From an uncultured Candidatus Saccharibacteria bacterium (GTDB taxonomy: Bacteria; Patescibacteriota; Minisyncoccia; Phycocordibacterales; Zambryskibacteraceae): 64,000 bases of DNA. Below the pieces are notes generated by a model that did no database searches, was not told the DNA's origin, and worked only from the letters and a program-made list of their open reading frames with translations. The stretch lies in assembly GCA_964348525.1 (NCBI GenBank), contig CAYGCY010000002.1, forward strand, positions 9,726 to 73,725, written 5' to 3'. Position 1 is the stretch's first letter. The number at the start of each line of letters is the position of its first letter. Both the position numbers and the translations under genes were made by a program. Shown here in pieces: positions 8,951-62,870 of the stretch.

Positions 8951-8957
8951 CCTACAA

Positions 8958-8990
8958 ACAAAAACCCGCGCTTAGCGCGGGTTTTTGTTT
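8958..8990. terminator. Bidirectional rho-independent terminator
   Basis: aaaaacccgcgcttagcgcgggtttttgttt: perfect GC stem flanked by A- and T-runs, between convergent genes. Confidence 0.85.
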
Positions 8991-10156: not shown

Positions 10157-10427
10157 ATTCTTTCATTTTCTTGGATAGGGAAACACATCCATCTGCCCAG
10201 ATTTTTTCCGAACTCTCGTCGAGCAGAGTATCAAGGGGCAGGGCGAATTGCTCTTCCATATTGATACCTCTCTTTGCGCATTCGTTTTCGCGAATTTGTC
10301 TTACAAGATCGCGAAGAAACTGCCTTGCTATTTTGGGTTTGGTGCCTCTAAATAGCATTTCATCGGCAGCTAACGACATGTCCAAACCTTCAAGTGTTTC
10401 TCCCAATTCTGCATAACTAATGGACAC
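10149..10427 (-). CDS. Hypothetical acidic protein, first gene of the DsbA-VKOR operon
   Basis: 92 aa, no TM. Overlaps the dsbA start by 8 nt. Confidence 0.4.
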   Translation of the reverse strand: MSISYAELGETLEGLDMSLAADEMLFRGTKPKIARQFLRDLVRQIRENECAKRGINMEEQFALPLDTLLDESSEKIWADGCVSLSKKMKEFG

Positions 10428-11201
10428 GGGCCACTCCTTACTAGGGTAGGTGATAATGATGCTTCTCCGGCGAATATATTATTTATTTTATTGCTTAAAG
10501 CAAGGAATTTTTCTACGCCCACTTAATTGTCTAGTTTAATTTAATGGAAAATAAATTTAGTAAAGCTTTGTTTATCGGCCTTTATTTTATAGGGGGATAG
10601 GGCTTTCTTAGGTTAGATTAAGGTCGCACAATATATCTTTTAGACCTACACCATCTATACAAAAGGGCCAAAGGACTCCCCCATAGCTTTTATTAAAAAA
10701 ACAGGCACTCCGGTATTTAAATTTAGAATTAATTTTATTTGTCAAAAATATTTTTAATATTATTCCCCACGTTTATACTTCACTAAAAATAATAAAACAA
10801 AAAATAATCTCTATTTTTATCTATCTTCTTTAGAGTCCATTCTGTCTGAACCCCTTTGGGGTCTTTATGAGCCCTAAAAGGCCTTAAAGAGGTATATGAC
10901 CCTATGCCAGGATGGGCCAAAGAATGCTCTTTGGAGCTTTTTAAGGAATTCTTCGTTGAGTCAATATTCTTCTACCCTTCTGGAACTTTTTATTTTTTAA
11001 AGCCTGTTTTGCATTGTTGGTAACAAACACAAAGCGAGCTTTGGACATTGAATTGTTTTTGTTTTTATTTATTGCCATATCTTTATTTTACCCATCTAAG
11101 AGCCCTTCCCACCATGAGCCTGTGTTATTAAGTATTAGGTACATCGAGCCGTAAAACGGCAAAAGGATGAAAAATAAAATTTTCTTGTGCATATACTTAC
11201 A

Positions 11202-25892: not shown

Positions 25893-25915
25893 TATAGTTA
25901 TATATCCTACAGCGG

Positions 25916-25974
25916 AAATATTACTTTCAAAAGCATTGGTAACCTTCTGACGCTTGCTTTTGAAAGCAATATTT
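25916..25974. promoter_or_regulatory. 20-bp near-perfect inverted repeat with 19-nt spacer, 24 nt upstream of grpE: candidate heat-shock operator
   Basis: aaatattactttcaaaagca (25916-25935) against tgcttttgaaagcaatattt (25955-25974), 19/20 complementary. AT-rich, no U-run. Does not match CIRCE, HAIR or the CtsR box. Confidence 0.45.
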
Positions 25975-25986
25975 TCGCGATTGTCC

Positions 25987-31448: not shown

Positions 31449-33254
31449 TTATTCAAGCACTGCTTTTATCCTGCGAATACCTTGCGCCACAGCTTCTTCT
31501 TTCTGGATTTTAAATGTGCCCAAATCTCCTGTATTTGCGACATGAGGTCCACCACAGAATTCTTTTGAAAATGCATGCTCTAAATCACTGCCAATAAAAT
31601 AAACAGAAACCTCGTCTCCATATTTTTCGCTAAACAGATGCCGTGCCCCAATCTTCATCGCCTCTTCTTTTGGCAAAATAATATTCTGGACGGGCAACTT
31701 TTCAGCAATTTTCTCATTCACAATGTTCTCCACTTTTTGCTTTTCCTCCTCTGTCATTTTTTGTGAATGGGCAAAATCAAAGCGCAACCTTTCTGGAGTG
31801 ATATTTGAACCCTTCTGTCCAACATGCTCTCCTAGCACCCTTTTTAAGGCTTCGTGAAGCAAGTGTGTGGCCGTGTGGTATTTGGTCTCCATTTCGCCGT
31901 GGCCTGCAAGCCCACCTTTAAACTTTTGTTCCGCCCCCGCGCGAGACAGTTCTTGATGGGCTTTAAATTTCTCCTGAAACTCTTTTTCATTTATTTCTCT
32001 TCCATTTTCTTTTGCTAGCTCTTTTGTAAGTTCAAAAGGAAACCCGTAGGAAGTAAATAAAACGAAAGGGTCTTCTCCCTTTTCAAAATGCTTGAGACCG
32101 GCTTCGAGGGTTTCTTTAAATTTATTTATCTCCTCAGTTATGACTTGTTTTATTAAATTCGCGTCAAAATCATAGTGATTTTTATAAATGACATGACCAA
32201 TAACAATTTCAGCAACAATAACTAGTTCTGACAAATCTGCTTTTATTTTCTTTGTATGAATGTATGCCCTACGAAGTAAGCGCCGTAAAATGTAGCCTCT
32301 GTCTGTATTTGATGGCACAACCCCATCATTTATCATAAATACCGCGGTACGTATGTGGTCAACGATAATTCTTGAAGAACGACCCGCCTTAGAATCGAAC
32401 TCCCGCAATGGCAATAGTAGTGGCGCAAAAATGTCTGTGTCATATGCGGTTTTCTTGCCCTGCATCACAGAGGTTAACCTTTCAAGCCCAGCCCCCGTAT
32501 CAACATTTTTATTAGCTAGTTTTCCAATAACTTTCCCATCTTTTTTCTCATATTCCATAAAAACATCATTCCAAATTTCTACAACAGTCTCATCCTTTAC
32601 TGCTTTCAAAAATTCTTCTTTAGATAAATTTCCCAGCCCATTTTCTGTAAGGTCATAAAACATTTCTGTATCTGGGCCACACGGGCCATCGTCTCCCGCA
32701 CTCCAAAAATTATCTTCGGCTCCCAAAAAATAAATTCTATTTTCTGCAATACCATTTTTCATCCAAATGCCCGCTGATTCAGTATCTTTTGGCGCATTTT
32801 CATCGCCCTCAAAACAAGTTATATAGAGCCTGTTTAAATCTAAACCAAAACCTTCTTCTTTTGAGGTTAAAAGCTCAACGCTCCACTTAATAGCATCCTC
32901 TTTAAAATAATCTCCAAGAGACCAATTGCCGAGCATTTCAAAAAAGGTTAGGTGCCTATTGTCGCCAACATCATCAATGTCTCCGGTGCGAATACATTTT
33001 TGAATATCAACCAACCTTTTTCCTTTTGGGTGCTCCTTGCCCAAAAGATATGGAATGAGGGGTTGCATCCCTGCACTATTAAAAAGCGTTTTCTGTGTAG
33101 CAGAAACTTCACTCGGTATAAGAGAAGCGGATGGGATTTCGATATGTCCCCTTTTAACAAAAAAATCTATGAATCTGCGCCTTATTTCTGCTGACTCCAT
33201 AGCAAAAATATAACATATTAGCGCTTTAAAACGAGCCTTGTTTGCACCATTCAC
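31449..33254 (-). CDS. alaS: Alanyl-tRNA synthetase, short form (catalytic + editing domains, no C-Ala domain)
   Basis: Class II AlaRS core. Editing-domain HxxxH (HTATHLLHEALKRVLG). 601 aa against about 870. Confidence 0.85.
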   Translation of the reverse strand: MNGANKARFKALICYIFAMESAEIRRRFIDFFVKRGHIEIPSASLIPSEVSATQKTLFNSAGMQPLIPYLLGKEHPKGKRLVDIQKCIRTGDIDDVGDNRHLTFFEMLGNWSLGDYFKEDAIKWSVELLTSKEEGFGLDLNRLYITCFEGDENAPKDTESAGIWMKNGIAENRIYFLGAEDNFWSAGDDGPCGPDTEMFYDLTENGLGNLSKEEFLKAVKDETVVEIWNDVFMEYEKKDGKVIGKLANKNVDTGAGLERLTSVMQGKKTAYDTDIFAPLLLPLREFDSKAGRSSRIIVDHIRTAVFMINDGVVPSNTDRGYILRRLLRRAYIHTKKIKADLSELVIVAEIVIGHVIYKNHYDFDANLIKQVITEEINKFKETLEAGLKHFEKGEDPFVLFTSYGFPFELTKELAKENGREINEKEFQEKFKAHQELSRAGAEQKFKGGLAGHGEMETKYHTATHLLHEALKRVLGEHVGQKGSNITPERLRFDFAHSQKMTEEEKQKVENIVNEKIAEKLPVQNIILPKEEAMKIGARHLFSEKYGDEVSVYFIGSDLEHAFSKEFCGGPHVANTGDLGTFKIQKEEAVAQGIRRIKAVLE

Positions 33255-33308
33255 GAATAAATTTTTCCAGCGAAAAATTTTGCTGTCTCTCAGTTTTTTA
33301 AAGTAAAG

Positions 33309-33405
33309 AGCCCCGTGAGATACCAGAGGACGAGTGGTGTTTGCCTTTTAGGAGCGCGGTATATCTCTCCGTGAAGGCAAATACCCGAGTCCTTATCTCA
33401 CGGGG
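33309..33405. repeat. Long imperfect hairpin with conserved apical loop (element copy 1) in the udg-alaS intergenic region
   Basis: Nested stems gccccgtgagata/tatctcacggggt and ggtgtttgcctt/aaggcaaatacc. Apical loop ttaggagcgcggtatatctctccgtga is shared with the copy at 61401-61426. Confidence 0.5.
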
Positions 33406-33465
33406 TCTTGACTTACCTATGCTGAAAAACTTCCGAGACGAACAGTATAAATAAGACTCGTTTTG

Positions 33466-39325: not shown

Positions 39326-39343
39326 TTACTTTCAAATTATAAC

Positions 39344-39374
39344 AAAAAATCCCCGTATATACGGGGATTTTTTG
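39344..39374. terminator. Bidirectional rho-independent terminator
   Basis: aaaaaatccccgtatatacggggattttttgtt. Confidence 0.8.
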
Positions 39375-40439
39375 TTATTTGTTACCTAGGAAGTGGTATT
39401 TACCCTCTTTGTCTCTTTTAAAGAATTTTGGGTTCTGAAGATTAACCAATATAGTATTTTCTTTTACGTATCTTTCCTTCAAAACTTTCTCGATTATTTT
39501 ATCCTTTGGAAGTGGTCCGCTCTTTTCAATGATAGACACTATTACATCTTTTACCACCCCTGGAGCATATCCCCACTCTTTTAGAGCATAGAGCCCTCTA
39601 CCTACCAACACAAAACGAGCATCTTTAATCAGTTCGTTGTGAGTAGTAGCAACGTGTGCGCGCTTATTGAAATATGTAGTAATAGCTTTGGCAACATCTC
39701 TAAAGTGGATGGGCGACCCGTGCTTGCGTATAACAAGATATGCATAATCTCTGATGCCTTTTGCCTTTACATTTGAAGAAGAAGTTTTGCCCCATTCTCC
39801 TAGAGGGTTTTTCCCTACTTTGTGAGAAAGGTTGAGCCAACGCCTTATTATTTCGTCCTGTTTGTATTCGTCTGAAACATCTTTTACATATTCCAAAAAC
39901 TTTTTTACTAGTTCTGATTCTGGCACAAGCTCACTGTCGTCTAGAGACACATAGAGTTTTTCCAAAGCAGAATGCACATTTTTAGCGAGATTTTCATCTA
40001 TATGCCATCTGTGTCTAAACTGTTCGTCTTCTTTTTCCTTTGTGAAATGCTCACCTAAAACTAATAGGAAATGTATAAAATTTTGACTTGACTGGTCGCT
40101 ACCAAGCTCATCTAAAAGCTCTTGATGAACTATTATTCCGCCAAGTTTTCTCAAAACATTTTTTAGTTCTTCAAATACTTCGGATTGTTTTGTATATTCC
40201 TTTGATTTACGGATATTGTTTAGAGAATATTCGTCTATCTGACGAACTCTTTCACGAGTGATCCCATACTTTTTGCCTATGGCTTCAAGGGTCATTGGTT
40301 TTGTCTCTCCACCTAACCCATATCGCTTTGTAACGATGTCTCTCGCCCTCAACGGCAATACCGAAAGAAGCTGTTTAGTGACCTGTTTTGGCTTGAAATT
40401 TAGCTTTATTTGAGCCTTTTTTGCTGTTTTTGATGACAT
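39375..40439 (-). CDS. Sigma-70 region-4-like HTH protein with C-terminal HARE-HTH-like domain
   Basis: N-terminal LTLEAIGKKYGITRERVRQIDEYSLNNIRK (sigma region 4.2-like). C-terminal GRGLYALKEWGY resembles HARE-HTH / RpoE-delta. Confidence 0.5.
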   Translation of the reverse strand: MSSKTAKKAQIKLNFKPKQVTKQLLSVLPLRARDIVTKRYGLGGETKPMTLEAIGKKYGITRERVRQIDEYSLNNIRKSKEYTKQSEVFEELKNVLRKLGGIIVHQELLDELGSDQSSQNFIHFLLVLGEHFTKEKEDEQFRHRWHIDENLAKNVHSALEKLYVSLDDSELVPESELVKKFLEYVKDVSDEYKQDEIIRRWLNLSHKVGKNPLGEWGKTSSSNVKAKGIRDYAYLVIRKHGSPIHFRDVAKAITTYFNKRAHVATTHNELIKDARFVLVGRGLYALKEWGYAPGVVKDVIVSIIEKSGPLPKDKIIEKVLKERYVKENTILVNLQNPKFFKRDKEGKYHFLGNK

Positions 40440-46564: not shown

Positions 46565-46604
46565 CACAAAGGGCTGGTTGCGGTTCAAAACCGCAACCAG
46601 CCCT
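46565..46604 (-). terminator. Perfect hairpin terminator after the P-loop kinase gene
   Basis: gggctggttgcggttcaaaaccgcaaccagccc with T-run on the minus strand. Confidence 0.75.
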
Positions 46605-46610
46605 TATTGG

Positions 46611-47253: not shown

Positions 47254-47290
47254 TAAAAAAAGGGCGTAACTATTGCAATAGTTACGCCCT
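47254..47290 (-). terminator. Hairpin terminator downstream of tRNA-Tyr
   Basis: gggcgtaactattgcaatagttacgccc with T-run on the minus strand. Confidence 0.75.
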
Positions 47291-50406: not shown

Positions 50407-50446
50407 ACAAAAAACCGTTCACTAGCTAGTGAACGGTTTTTTGTAT
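50407..50446 (+). terminator. Perfect hairpin terminator
   Basis: aaaaaaccgttcactagctagtgaacggtttttt. Confidence 0.8.
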
Positions 50447-53830: not shown

Positions 53831-53836
53831 CACCTA

Positions 53837-53877
53837 CCCCGCGAGATGTATCCACATCTCGCGGGGTTTTCTTTTTC
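53837..53877 (+). terminator. Strong rho-independent terminator
   Basis: ccccgcgagatgtatccacatctcgcggggttttcttttt. Confidence 0.85.
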
Positions 53878-61146: not shown

Positions 61147-61302
61147 ATGAGACCTTTCTGTTTAGCAATGGCCTTGGCTATGGCCTTTTCAGTAGTTGTG
61201 TTCACCGACCCACTTAAATCAACTGGAACACTTGCTGGTGGCCTCGCTGGCATAATTTATGCTGTGCTCTATGTTGGTATAGCCATCAAAGAAAAGAAGT
61301 AG
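61147..61302 (+). CDS. Small two-TM peptide (51 aa)
   Basis: MRPFCLAMALAMAFSVVVFTDPLKSTGTLAGGLAGIIYAVLYVGIAIKEKK, with own promoter, SD and terminator. Confidence 0.35.
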   Translation: MRPFCLAMALAMAFSVVVFTDPLKSTGTLAGGLAGIIYAVLYVGIAIKEKK

Positions 61303-61318
61303 CCCAAACCGCACACAT

Positions 61319-61362
61319 GAGCGCCACGTGATACATCACGTGGCGCTTTTCGTTTGTTTTTT
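61319..61362 (+). terminator. Hairpin + long T-run terminator
   Basis: agcgccacgtgatacatcacgtggcgcttttcgtttgtttttt. Confidence 0.8.
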
Positions 61363-61377
61363 CTCCTACCGCTTCCA

Positions 61378-61449
61378 ATTAAGTAAATTAAAAGGCTCGT
61401 TTAGGAGCGAGGTTTATCTCTCCGTGACGAGCCTTTTAATTTACTTAAT
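61378..61449. repeat. Hairpin element copy 2: 23-bp perfect stem with the conserved 26-nt apical loop
   Basis: attaagtaaattaaaaggctcgt / acgagccttttaatttacttaat. Loop ttaggagcgaggtttatctctccgtg, about 90% identical to the loop at 33347-33372. Confidence 0.5.
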
Positions 61450-62834: not shown

Positions 62835-62870
62835 AAATGGCTGGTCGCGCGTAGCGCGACCAGCCATTTT
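62835..62870. terminator. Perfect hairpin bidirectional terminator
   Basis: aaatggctggtcgcgcgtagcgcgaccagccatttt. Confidence 0.85.

What the first reader, a model, noticed from the sequence alone, without database searches (positions are those of the whole stretch)
33309..33405. Structured hairpin element with a conserved apical loop in the alaS leader (copy 1 of 2)
A roughly 97-nt nested hairpin has a 13-bp outer stem, GGAC/GUCC, and a 12-bp stem. Its apical loop UUAGGAGCGCGGUAUAUCUCUCCGUGA recurs at 61401-61426 atop an unrelated 23-bp stem. The loop is conserved while the stems differ, which points to a functional RNA or protein-binding motif. A new ncRNA, riboregulator or terminator class is possible, rather than simple duplication. 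It lies between the udg stop and the alaS start on the minus strand, so it could also regulate alaS.
Basis: seen in the sequence. Interest (0 to 1): 0.6.

Follow-up and report, generated by a model that had tools for sequence, protein, structure and literature searches.

The report
Conserved 28-nt cap on terminator palindromes
A nearly invariant 28-base mini-hairpin sits exactly at the centre of otherwise ordinary palindromic terminator hairpins at several unrelated places in a narrow group of Minisyncoccia (CPR) bacteria; it comes and goes between near-identical strains, so it looks like a tiny propagating hairpin module and not an alaS regulator.

Summary
The 28-nt unit T-TTAGGAGCG[C/A]GGT[A/T]TA[T/C]CTCTCCGTG-A occurs at window 33347-33374 and 61400-61427, where none is expected by chance. 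Each copy is the apex of a long hairpin. I found 10 copies at about 6 independent loci, in the window genome, one Minisyncoccia MAG and several groundwater assemblies. Each lies at the exact dyad of a perfect palindrome of the A-tract/GC/T-tract type that this genome uses as terminators. The stems differ and covary (11 of 12 pairs). The cap is 93-100% identical even where coding DNA is only 68-80% identical.

It is not an alaS leader. It lies upstream of a conserved extended -10 promoter that sits 6 nt before the alaS ATG. It is absent in relatives whose UDG is 99% identical. In a relative whose AlaRS is 97% identical, the cap is split at its own apex by a further hairpin of about 120 nt. Site 1 is itself nested in the apex of another conserved hairpin.

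Best reading (about 0.5): a very small hairpin module, like REP or SDR elements, that spreads by insertion or replacement at palindrome apexes and is recognised by an unknown factor. There is no Rfam, phage or plasmid match and no transposase in the window.

The parts
33347..33374 (+). Cap copy 1: the 28-nt conserved unit TTTAGGAGCGCGGTATATCTCTCCGTGA. It has a closing T-A pair, a 3x3 internal loop, the mini-helix GGAGCG/CTCTCC at 33351-33370 with a C.T mismatch, and an 8-nt apex. On the transcribed (-) strand it reads UCAC-GGAGAG-AUAUACCG-CGCUCC-UAAA.
33336..33385 (.). Inner stem GGTGTTTGCCT / AGGCAAATACC around cap 1. Together with GGAC/GTCC (33328-33331 and 33389-33392), its base (CTCGGGTATT ... 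ACC.CTCG on the - strand) is homologous to the base of the 'Y' hairpin that occupies this spacer in relatives.
33311..33405 (.). Layer-1 stem CCCCGTGAGATA (33311-33322) / TATCTCACGGGG (33394-33405), which encloses the above. On the - strand it is followed by CUCUUUACUUU, which is terminator-like.
33279..33443 (-). 'X-element': a conserved imperfect hairpin with halves at 33443-33406 and 33310-33279. The whole site-1 hairpin is nested in its apex. The same element, with a plain GCTC-ATTA-GAGC apex, occurs in L008/L009 at a different locus.
33228..33464 (-). Outermost inverted repeat AAAACGAGTCTTATTTATAC (33464-33445) / GTGCAAACAAGGCTCGTTTT (33247-33228). It is probably the ancestral udg terminator palindrome, and all the other layers sit inside it.
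33207..33215 (-). Extended -10 box TGTTATATT, 6 nt upstream of the alaS ATG at 33200. It is conserved in relatives and places the hairpin upstream of the alaS promoter, which would give a leaderless mRNA (inferred).
61400..61427 (+). Cap copy 2: TTTAGGAGCGAGGTTTATCTCTCCGTGA.
61378..61449 (.). Site-2 hairpin: perfect 22-bp arms ATTAAGTAAATTAAAAGGCTCG / CGAGCCTTTTAATTTACTTAAT around cap 2. It begins 6 nt after the FKBP stop codon on the - strand. On that strand the 3' arm reads CGAGCC-UUUUAAUUUACUU, so it is the FKBP terminator.

Best explanation
The 28-nt unit is a very small, sequence-constrained hairpin module that sits at the exact dyad (apex) of the perfect-palindrome intrinsic terminators typical of this genome.

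Shown:
- It recurs almost unchanged at unrelated intergenic sites in a narrow Minisyncoccia lineage.
- Its flanks are always complementary right up to its ends.
- It is present, absent, replaced or interrupted at orthologous sites in near-identical strains.
- Hairpin modules in these genomes nest inside one another's apexes.

Inferred:
- Copies arise at the DNA level, by insertion or short-tract replacement at the single-stranded apex of an extruded or folded palindrome. This could be cut-and-fill, or gene conversion between similar terminator arms.
- This is analogous to REP elements and to the cyanobacterial 'small dispersed repeats'.
- The near-invariant sequence and the conserved C.U mismatch reflect recognition of the folded hairpin by an unidentified trans-acting protein.
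- When transcribed, the module simply extends the terminator hairpin of the upstream gene.
- It does not regulate alaS.
For: 1. Ten copies were found at about 6 independent loci: window (2), MAG JBAQOA01 (2), ORMF01 contigs (5), and Logan L026 (1, interrupted).
2. Every copy is flanked directly by complementary arms. Removing the cap leaves a zero-spacer perfect palindrome, the native terminator style. The window has 8 such palindromes against 0 in 20 shuffles, and 3 of them have spacer 0.
3. Filled and empty sites can be compared. The FKBP terminator in L010/L011 is AAAAAATGGCTC-TATT-GAGCCATTTTTT, while the window has TTAAAAGGCTCG-[cap]-CGAGCCTTTTAA. The X-element apex is plain in L008 and filled in the window.
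4. The udg-alaS spacer turns over quickly among relatives with 84-99% identical UDG.
5. Window and L005 are 92% identical and their flanks match for more than 40 nt on each side. Yet the stem is replaced and the cap differs at 2 positions. Window site 2 has the same cap variant as L004b, which is at another locus.
6. Nesting is recursive. In L026 the cap is split at its 8-nt apex by an insert of about 120 nt with perfect 15-bp terminal inverted repeats.
7. Both orientations occur in tandem in L004, and one of the two has different 4-nt flanks around the identical 20-nt mini-hairpin.
8. Distribution is narrow. There are no copies in about 100 kb of syntenic DNA from relatives with 81-89% UDG identity. 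There are none in viral contigs, phages or plasmids.
9. Three assemblies carry the same allele, so these are not assembly artefacts.
10. Precedents exist: very small mobile repeats that insert into a palindrome (HIP1), as cited in PMC5861425, and REP/REPIN elements (PMC3116915).
Against: - No enzyme was identified. All window ORFs that were scanned are housekeeping genes.
- Copy number is low: 2 in 64 kb here, and 2 exact matches in a whole MAG.
- There are no target-site duplications and no conserved terminal inverted repeats.
- The FKBP-site copy is kept at 27/28 identity between genomes whose flanking coding DNA is 68-80% identical. A copy inherited passively would not be expected to stay this conserved, so a host function or continuing conversion is needed to explain it.
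- Orientation is biased: 6 of 7 independent copies have the same orientation relative to the neighbouring genes. This fits an RNA function equally well.
- No empty and filled pair comes from otherwise identical sequence, so exact insertion junctions are inferred, not observed.
Confidence: 0.5

Rival explanations
1. The cap is a host-selected structured RNA module. It would be a protein-binding (or RNA-binding) apical element on the 3'-terminal terminator hairpins of several mRNAs, for example for 3'-end protection, processing or modulated termination. Purifying selection would conserve it while the stems drift with compensatory changes.
For: - The cap is 93-100% identical across loci and genomes, while the stems covary: 11 of 12 pairs show double changes.
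- At the orthologous FKBP site, window and MAG share 27/28 cap positions against 68-80% identity in the neighbouring genes.
- Six of 7 independent copies have the same orientation relative to transcription. The perfect inverted arms should allow flipping, yet orientation is kept.
- Copies start 0-40 nt after stop codons and are followed by U-tracts.
- The mini-helix has a conserved mismatch and invariant 3x3 internal-loop bases, as expected for a recognition surface.
Against: - The cap is dispensable at the udg-alaS site in relatives with 99% identical UDG.
- It is interrupted at its apex in L026.
- The stem is replaced wholesale between strains that are 92% identical.
- One copy is inverted and has different flanks.
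- There is no covariation inside the mini-helix, because it never varies.
- Non-Watson-Crick pairs do not favour one strand (about 4 against 2).
- No Rfam family matches, and no expression data are available.
Confidence: 0.3
2. The cap is a DNA-level protein-binding site presented on a cruciform or hairpin. Candidates are a site-specific recombinase or Xer-like 11-6-11 site, a nicking (HUH) origin-like loop, or a nucleoid or segregation protein site.
For: - The length is 28 bp, with a partial dyad GGAG(N12)CTCC around a central GGTATA. This layout loosely recalls 11-6-11 recombinase sites (the comparison with dif is from memory).
- A conserved loop on variable stems is also the anatomy of HUH nick sites (general knowledge).
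- The stems are perfect Watson-Crick pairs, and palindromes with zero spacer point to DNA-level symmetry.
Against: - I saw no resemblance to the dif consensus arms. That comparison was from memory and was not tested computationally.
- There are several copies per genome, at gene ends.
- No recombinase, relaxase or Rep gene is nearby.
- The arms match only 6 of 11 positions.
- The apex can be interrupted.
Confidence: 0.1
3. The element is an alaS leader riboregulator or attenuator.
For: It lies between udg and alaS on the coding strand side. A different conserved hairpin ('Y') does precede alaS, leuS, mnmA and grpE in relatives.
Against: - The hairpin is upstream of the conserved extended -10 box, which lies 6 nt before the ATG.
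- It is absent or replaced in close relatives.
- The same cap follows FKBP, map and RNase J genes elsewhere.
- There is no T-box or other Rfam hit.
Confidence: 0.03

Closest known systems
Cyanobacterial small dispersed repeats (SDR; Elhai et al. 2008, Genome Res 18:1484, as cited in PMC5861425 and PMC3116915)
   Same: Both are very small units. SDR5 inserts inside a palindrome (HIP1), as stated in PMC5861425. Nested insertions and confinement to one lineage are also from my recollection of the 2008 abstract.
   Different: The sequences are unrelated and the phylum is different. Copy number here is low (2 per 64 kb), not hundreds. The target here is the dyad of long terminator palindromes, not an 8-mer. 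No mobility mechanism is known for either.
REP / REPIN elements mobilised by RAYT (Y1 HUH) transposases (PMC3116915)
   Same: Both are short imperfect palindromes with a conserved mismatch and conserved flanking tetranucleotides. Both are extragenic and lie at gene 3' ends, occur in either orientation and in tandem inverted pairs, and can act as terminators or stabilisers.
   Different: In REP/REPIN elements the conserved sequence forms the stem. Here the long stems are locus-specific and only the apex is conserved. There is no GTAG motif, no RAYT gene was seen, and copy number is far lower.
Intrinsic (Rho-independent), bidirectional terminators
   Same: Position is immediately after stop codons. 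A GC-richer stem is followed by a U-tract, and an A-tract/T-tract symmetry gives a hairpin on both strands. This is the same architecture as the plain terminators of this genome.
   Different: Plain terminators here have loops of 0-4 nt. These carry a 26-nt structured, sequence-invariant apex.
Intervening sequences (IVS) in bacterial 23S rRNA helices (own knowledge)
   Same: Both are extended hairpins that replace the apical loop of a pre-existing helix, are distributed sporadically among close strains, and are of unknown origin.
   Different: IVSs are in rRNA, are 90-150 nt long and are excised by RNase III. Here the hosts are intergenic terminators and another non-coding hairpin.
MITEs
   Same: Both are small, non-coding, hairpin-forming and polymorphic for presence or absence.
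   Different: MITEs conserve their terminal inverted repeats and create direct target duplications. Here the ends differ between copies, the centre is conserved, and there is no target duplication.

Membership tests
Intrinsic terminator | GC-rich stem followed directly by a U-tract, located after a stop codon | tested here: met
   Site 2, L001, L002, L003a, L004b and L005 have 6-8 GC-richer bp followed by U-rich tails such as CGAGCC-UUUUAAUUUACUU. They lie 0-40 nt after stop codons. At site 1 the cap's own stem (33336-33346 with 33375-33385) is not followed by a U-tract; there the U-rich tails follow only the enclosing layer-1 stem and the outermost repeat.
Intrinsic terminator | Short loop (3-8 nt) | tested here: not met
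   The loop is 26 nt. The consensus scanner does not call the full hairpins. Plain terminators of the window have spacers of 0-4 nt.
REP/REPIN-RAYT | Conserved imperfect palindrome forming the stem, with a 5' GTAG-type tetranucleotide | tested here: not met
   Only the 20-nt mini-hairpin and its 4-nt flanks (TTTA / GTGA) are conserved. There is no GTAG, and the long stems are locus-specific.
REP/REPIN-RAYT | Tens to hundreds of copies per genome and a cognate RAYT gene | tested here: inconclusive
   There are 2 copies in 64 kb, and 2 exact matches in one MAG. No Y1 transposase is among the window ORFs. Whole genomes could not be searched.
MITE | Conserved terminal inverted repeats plus direct target-site duplication | tested here: not met
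   The arms differ between copies, and the flanks are inverted, not direct.
Small dispersed repeats (SDR-like very small mobile elements) | A unit of less than about 30 nt with a hairpin fold, found inside palindromes, with nested insertions and a lineage-restricted distribution | tested here: met
   The unit is 28 nt with a mini-helix. It always lies at a palindrome dyad. Nesting is seen in L026 and in the X apex. It is restricted to a narrow clade. Sequence homology to SDRs was not tested, and mobility itself is inferred.
Riboswitch / T-box / ribosomal-leader type cis-regulator of alaS | Located in the 5' UTR of the regulated gene and conserved with it | tested here: not met
   It lies upstream of the extended -10 box, which is 6 nt before the ATG. 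It is absent in relatives with 99% identical UDG. Rfam gives no hit.
CRISPR repeat | Direct repeats of 28-37 nt in arrays with spacers | tested here: not met
   Only two copies are in the window, 28 kb apart, each inside a palindrome. The loose resemblance to type I-F repeats (TCAC...stem...CTAA) is from memory only.
Xer/dif-type recombination site | An 11-6-11 site with conserved XerD-arm consensus, one per replicon | not tested
   The length and a weak dyad fit (6 of 11 positions). Several copies per genome and no resemblance to the remembered dif consensus argue against it. No computational comparison was made.

The most novel reading that the evidence does not exclude
A previously undescribed class of ultra-small (about 28 nt) hairpin elements in CPR bacteria. 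They would insert precisely at the dyad of palindromic terminators, and into the apical loops of one another and of other non-coding hairpins, building nested 'Russian-doll' hairpins. This implies an apex-targeting DNA (or RNA-templated) mobility mechanism with an unknown enzyme in organisms with minimal genomes.
Probability: 0.3. Interest if true: 0.75.

Novelty: new variant of a known kind. Interest (0 to 1): 0.5.

Why it matters
If the apex-insertion reading holds, these would be among the smallest propagating elements known. They would also be the first described in the reduced genomes of Patescibacteria, where repeats and mobile DNA are scarce. The element would then mark a structure-specific process, cleavage or repair at hairpin apexes, that reshapes intergenic regions between strains with 97-99% identical proteins.

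If the RNA reading holds instead, it defines a new protein-binding cap on mRNA 3' ends in an uncultured phylum.

Either way there are practical consequences:
- The region should not be annotated as an alaS leader.
- The palindromes are likely to break short-read assemblies at these spots: four contigs end inside them and a fifth starts at the edge of one.

Tried and rejected
- Rfam, at gathering and permissive thresholds, on the window, on site 1 and on the L008 spacer. Only tRNAs and noise were found.
- Two pattern scans of viral contigs, and phage and plasmid BLAST. Nothing was found.
- One metagenome hit, L006, is a chance match: it is GC-rich and has no stem.
- Covariance model R1 over 210 kb of window plus relatives. 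No diverged copies beyond those already known.
- K-turn, loop-E/sarcin-ricin, UAA/GAN, 11-nt receptor, bulge-helix-bulge, tRNA microhelix, T-box and PyrR/TRAP-type sites. I compared these by eye and from memory, and none fits the 3x3 internal loop and mini-helix.
- A mini-ORF or a Shine-Dalgarno plus start codon inside the loop. There is no start codon at a usable distance.
- A promoter inside the loop. TATATC lacks the final T, and the scanner found none.
- A strand call from G.U against C.A pairs. The count is 4 against 2, and the window's site-1 mismatch is a perfect pair in L026, so this is uninformative.
- A search for a transposase, integrase or HUH gene in the window. All 47 window ORFs scanned are housekeeping or hypothetical.
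- IF-1 and FKBP exact-protein look-ups, to get more strain alleles of site 1. The contigs were too short to reach the udg-alaS spacer; FKBP gave the same allele as L005.
- Elhai et al. 2008 could not be read because it is not held.

Full report
**1. Observation.**

The motif TTAGGAGCG[N]GGT[N]TATCTCTCCGTGA occurs twice in the window, at 33348-33374 and 61401-61427 on the + strand. None is expected in 100 dinucleotide-preserving shuffles. Both regions fold into very stable hairpins on either strand (z = -8.3 to -9.9).

The conserved unit is really 28 nt, because a T before and an A after it are also invariant and can pair. Inside it, GGAGCG pairs with CUCUCC around an 8-nt apex, with a conserved C.U mismatch.

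Site 1 is nested (coordinates):
- cap: 33347-33374
- inner stem: 33336-33346 with 33375-33385
- GGAC/GTCC: 33328-33331 with 33389-33392
- 12-bp stem CCCCGTGAGATA: 33311-33322 with 33394-33405

Site 2 is a perfect 22-bp stem (61378-61399 with 61428-61449) around the cap.

**2. More copies.**

One scan of one genome per GTDB species found two more copies, both in a single Minisyncoccia MAG, JBAQOA01 (L001, L002). One metagenome scan found three ORMF01 contigs with true copies and one chance hit, L006.

K-mer and covariance-model searches added three more:
- a truncated copy at the end of L003;
- an inverted variant in L004, with the identical 20-nt mini-hairpin but flanks GC/AAA in place of TTTA/GTGA, in tandem with the normal copy;
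- an interrupted copy in L026.

That makes ten copies at about six independent loci. They lie after udg, FKBP, map and RNase J genes, and before alaS, tgt, ndk and a pilO-neighbour gene.

No copy was found in about 100 kb of syntenic sequence from relatives with 81-89% UDG identity. None was found in viral contigs, phages or plasmids. No Rfam family matches.

**3. Anatomy shared by all copies.**

The cap is flanked directly by complementary arms with the layout A-tract, 6-8 GC-richer bp, cap, complement, T-tract. In the 12 pairs next to the cap, 97.5% of cells are paired and 11 of 12 pairs show changes on both sides. None of 500 shuffles, and no slid register, reaches this. The mini-helix never varies, so it carries no covariation evidence.

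The arms are the native terminator style of this genome. The window has 8 perfect palindromes with arms of at least 13 nt and spacers of 0-4 nt, against 0 in 20 shuffles. Most have A/T-tract flanks, and 3 have spacer 0. Deleting the cap from any copy leaves exactly such a zero-spacer palindrome.

The copies start 0-40 nt after stop codons. Except at site 1, each capped stem is followed directly by a U-rich tail. At site 1 the cap's own stem has none, and the U-rich tails follow the enclosing layer-1 stem and the outermost repeat. They are therefore terminator hairpins with an unusual, invariant apex.

**4. It is not an alaS leader.**

The alaS ATG is at 33200 on the - strand. Six nt upstream lies TGTTATATT (33215-33207), an extended -10 box. 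It is conserved as TG(C/T)TATATT(T4)G(N)TATG in L012, L016, L022, L025 and L026. This implies a leaderless alaS mRNA (inference), and it puts the hairpin upstream of the promoter.

The udg-alaS spacer is hypervariable:

| Relative | Identity to window | Content of the spacer |
|---|---|---|
| L012, L013 | UDG 99% | A different hairpin, 'Y' |
| L016, L017 | UDG 89% | The same 'Y' hairpin |
| L018 | UDG 84% | 10-nt spacer |
| L022 (MAG JBAQOA01) | UDG 85% | Small ORF plus a plain terminator |
| L014, L015 | UDG 96% | Same 5' sequence as the window; contigs stop exactly where the window's nested insert begins |

**5. Evidence for insertion or replacement at hairpin apexes.**

(a) FKBP terminator. 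L010/L011 have ATATCAAAAAATGGCTC-TATT-GAGCCATTTTTTGATAT. The window has TTAAAAGGCTCG-[cap]-CGAGCCTTTTAA. L002 has TTAAAAAAGCTTTG-[cap]-CAAAGCTTTTTTAA.

(b) Window against L005, L036 and L037. These are 92% identical overall, and the flanks are identical for more than 40 nt on each side. The shared outer arm is TTAAAAGGC...GCYTTTTAA. The inner part is TCG in the window and AAAGTGCCTCA in L005, and the caps differ at 2 positions. The same L005 allele is present in three independent assemblies. Cap variants do not follow loci: window site 2 equals L004b, and window site 1 equals L001, L005 and L004a.

(c) Site 1 lies in the apex of a larger conserved imperfect hairpin, the 'X-element' (33279-33310 and 33406-33443). 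In L008/L009 the same element occurs at another locus with a plain GCTC-ATTA-GAGC apex.

(d) The base of the site-1 inner hairpin (CTCGGGTATT...ACC.CTCG) is homologous to the base of the Y hairpin of L012. The apical part of a Y-type hairpin was therefore replaced by TGCCT-[cap]-AGGCA.

(e) In L026 (AlaRS 97% identical) the cap itself is split inside its 8-nt apex. It reads TCACGGAGAGAT | about 120 nt with perfect 15-bp terminal inverted repeats CCCCCACACTAAACA/TGTTTAGTGTGGGGG | TATACCGCGCTCCTAAA. X and the CCCCGTGAGATA layer are absent there.

(f) The whole window spacer lies inside an outermost repeat, AAAACGAG(Y)CTTATTT.../...AAGGCTCGTTTT (33464-33445 and 33247-33228). This looks like the original udg terminator.

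Hairpin modules in these genomes thus nest recursively in one another's apexes, and they are exchanged between strains whose proteins are 97-99% identical.

**6. Constraint.**

Between the window and MAG JBAQOA01 the neighbouring genes are 68-80% identical at the DNA level. The FKBP-site caps share 27/28 positions, and all caps share at least 26/28. Either purifying selection or continuing copying from a constrained source is needed to explain this. In both cases some trans-acting factor must read the sequence.

Six of seven independent copies have the same orientation relative to the neighbouring genes, so the transcribed loop reads UCAC-GGAGAG-AUAUACCG-CGCUCC-UAAA. The exception is the second hairpin of the L004 tandem. 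By my own two-sided binomial calculation this gives p of about 0.125, which is only suggestive.

G.U against C.A counts in the stems (about 4 against 2) do not identify the folded strand. The window's site-1 mismatch is a perfect pair in L026.

**7. Interpretation.**

Best supported (about 0.5): a very small hairpin module that propagates at the DNA level into the dyad of palindromic terminators, either by insertion or by short-tract replacement or gene conversion between similar arms. When transcribed it simply caps the terminator.

The closest analogues are the cyanobacterial small dispersed repeats, for which a palindrome (HIP1) is reported as an insertion site (PMC5861425), and REP/REPIN elements (PMC3116915). 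It differs from both in three ways. Only the apex is conserved, copy number is low, and no enzyme is known.

The main rival (about 0.3) is a host-selected protein-binding RNA cap on mRNA 3' ends. The two readings are not exclusive, because REP elements are both mobile and functional in RNA. A DNA-level binding or recombination site (about 0.1) and an alaS riboregulator (about 0.03) are less likely. No transposase, integrase or HUH gene is in the window.

**8. Limits.**

- No expression data are available.
- Exact insertion junctions are inferred from non-identical relatives.
- The leaderless promoter is inferred from conservation.
- My description of SDR properties beyond the cited sentences rests on memory of the 2008 abstract.

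Noticed in passing
window 25912-25978 (- strand); also L012 1533-1591, L016 10604-10656, L014 664-722, L018 726-774 and 7255-7303, L025 ~2395-2450: 'Y-element'. This is a separate conserved hairpin with a 21-nt invariant loop, GAGCGAC(R)AAAGGTCACCAAT, and conserved flanks CTCGG / CCTCGCTCTAA. Its stems covary: 11 of 24 pairs have compensatory changes. In the six copies whose downstream gene was checked (alaS twice, leuS, mnmA twice, and grpE in the window) it is in sense orientation and lies 10-25 nt upstream of an extended -10 box. The gene downstream of the L025 copy was not resolved. Rfam at the gathering threshold over the whole window reports nothing at the window copy; the copies in the loci were not scanned. 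It is a candidate promoter-proximal or regulatory RNA or DNA element.
   Followed up: partly
window 33279-33310 + 33406-33443 (- strand), plus small hairpin 33261-33278; L008 5202-5282; L009 862-942; 5' half in L014/L015 contig ends: 'X-element'. This is an imperfect hairpin of about 85 nt, about 90% identical between genomes whose FKBP proteins are only 61% identical, and found at different loci (udg-alaS here, FKBP-tgt in L008). It is followed by a small hairpin with the same GCUG loop but covarying stems (UUUUUC/GAAAAA against CCCCGUC/GACGGGG). There is no Rfam hit. It may be an unknown ncRNA or another mobile hairpin.
   Followed up: partly
window 8956-8990, 39339-39378, 46569-46605, 47261-47290, 50407-50444, 53836-53867, 61320-61347, 62835-62869: Intergenic terminators here are perfect palindromes with arms of 13-20 nt. 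Three have no spacer at all, so even the would-be loop bases are self-complementary. There are 8 in the window against 0 in 20 shuffles. Full central symmetry is not needed for an RNA hairpin, so it hints at a DNA-level process that generates or maintains palindromes.
   Followed up: partly
window 33198-33215 (- strand); L012 ~1610-1627; L016 ~10678-10696; L022 ~10940-10960: A conserved TG(N)TATATT extended -10 box lies 6-7 nt before the ATG of alaS, and similar boxes precede mnmA, leuS and grpE. This suggests leaderless mRNAs are common in this lineage.
   Followed up: partly
L026 31-150: 'Z' insert. This is a hairpin-forming insert of about 120 nt with perfect 15-bp terminal inverted repeats, CCCCCACACTAAACA / TGTTTAGTGTGGGGG, and it splits the cap at its apex. 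In cap orientation both it and the cap end in ...GTGA. No other copy exists in the held sequences.
   Followed up: partly
L005 396-438 (same as L035 and L036); L003 57-235: Further strain-specific palindromes lie next to cap copies. One is a perfect 19-bp-arm palindrome, TGTACAAGGTGGAACCTCG-tacgc-, that is absent from the window allele. The other is a segment of about 180 nt bounded by a perfect 20-bp inverted repeat, TACAGTAGGCCAATTTTGAA, lying between two cap hairpins.
   Followed up: no
window 61147-61302 (+), terminator 61320-61347: A small hydrophobic ORF (51 aa) with its own GC-rich terminator, convergent with FKBP. The terminator, and a small ORF in the same position, recur in L005 and L008, but the C-terminus differs. 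There is no Pfam hit.
   Followed up: no
window 10417-11201: An AT-rich stretch of about 785 nt with no ORF longer than 50 aa and no Rfam hit. It is the largest non-coding gap in the window.
   Followed up: no
L003 (ends in a cap), L014/L015 (end at the X apex), L037 (ends in the 3' arm); L026 (starts at the hairpin base): Four short-read contigs end inside these nested palindromes, and L026 begins at the first base of the hairpin's 5' arm. The elements appear to break assemblies and are probably under-represented in MAGs.
   Followed up: no
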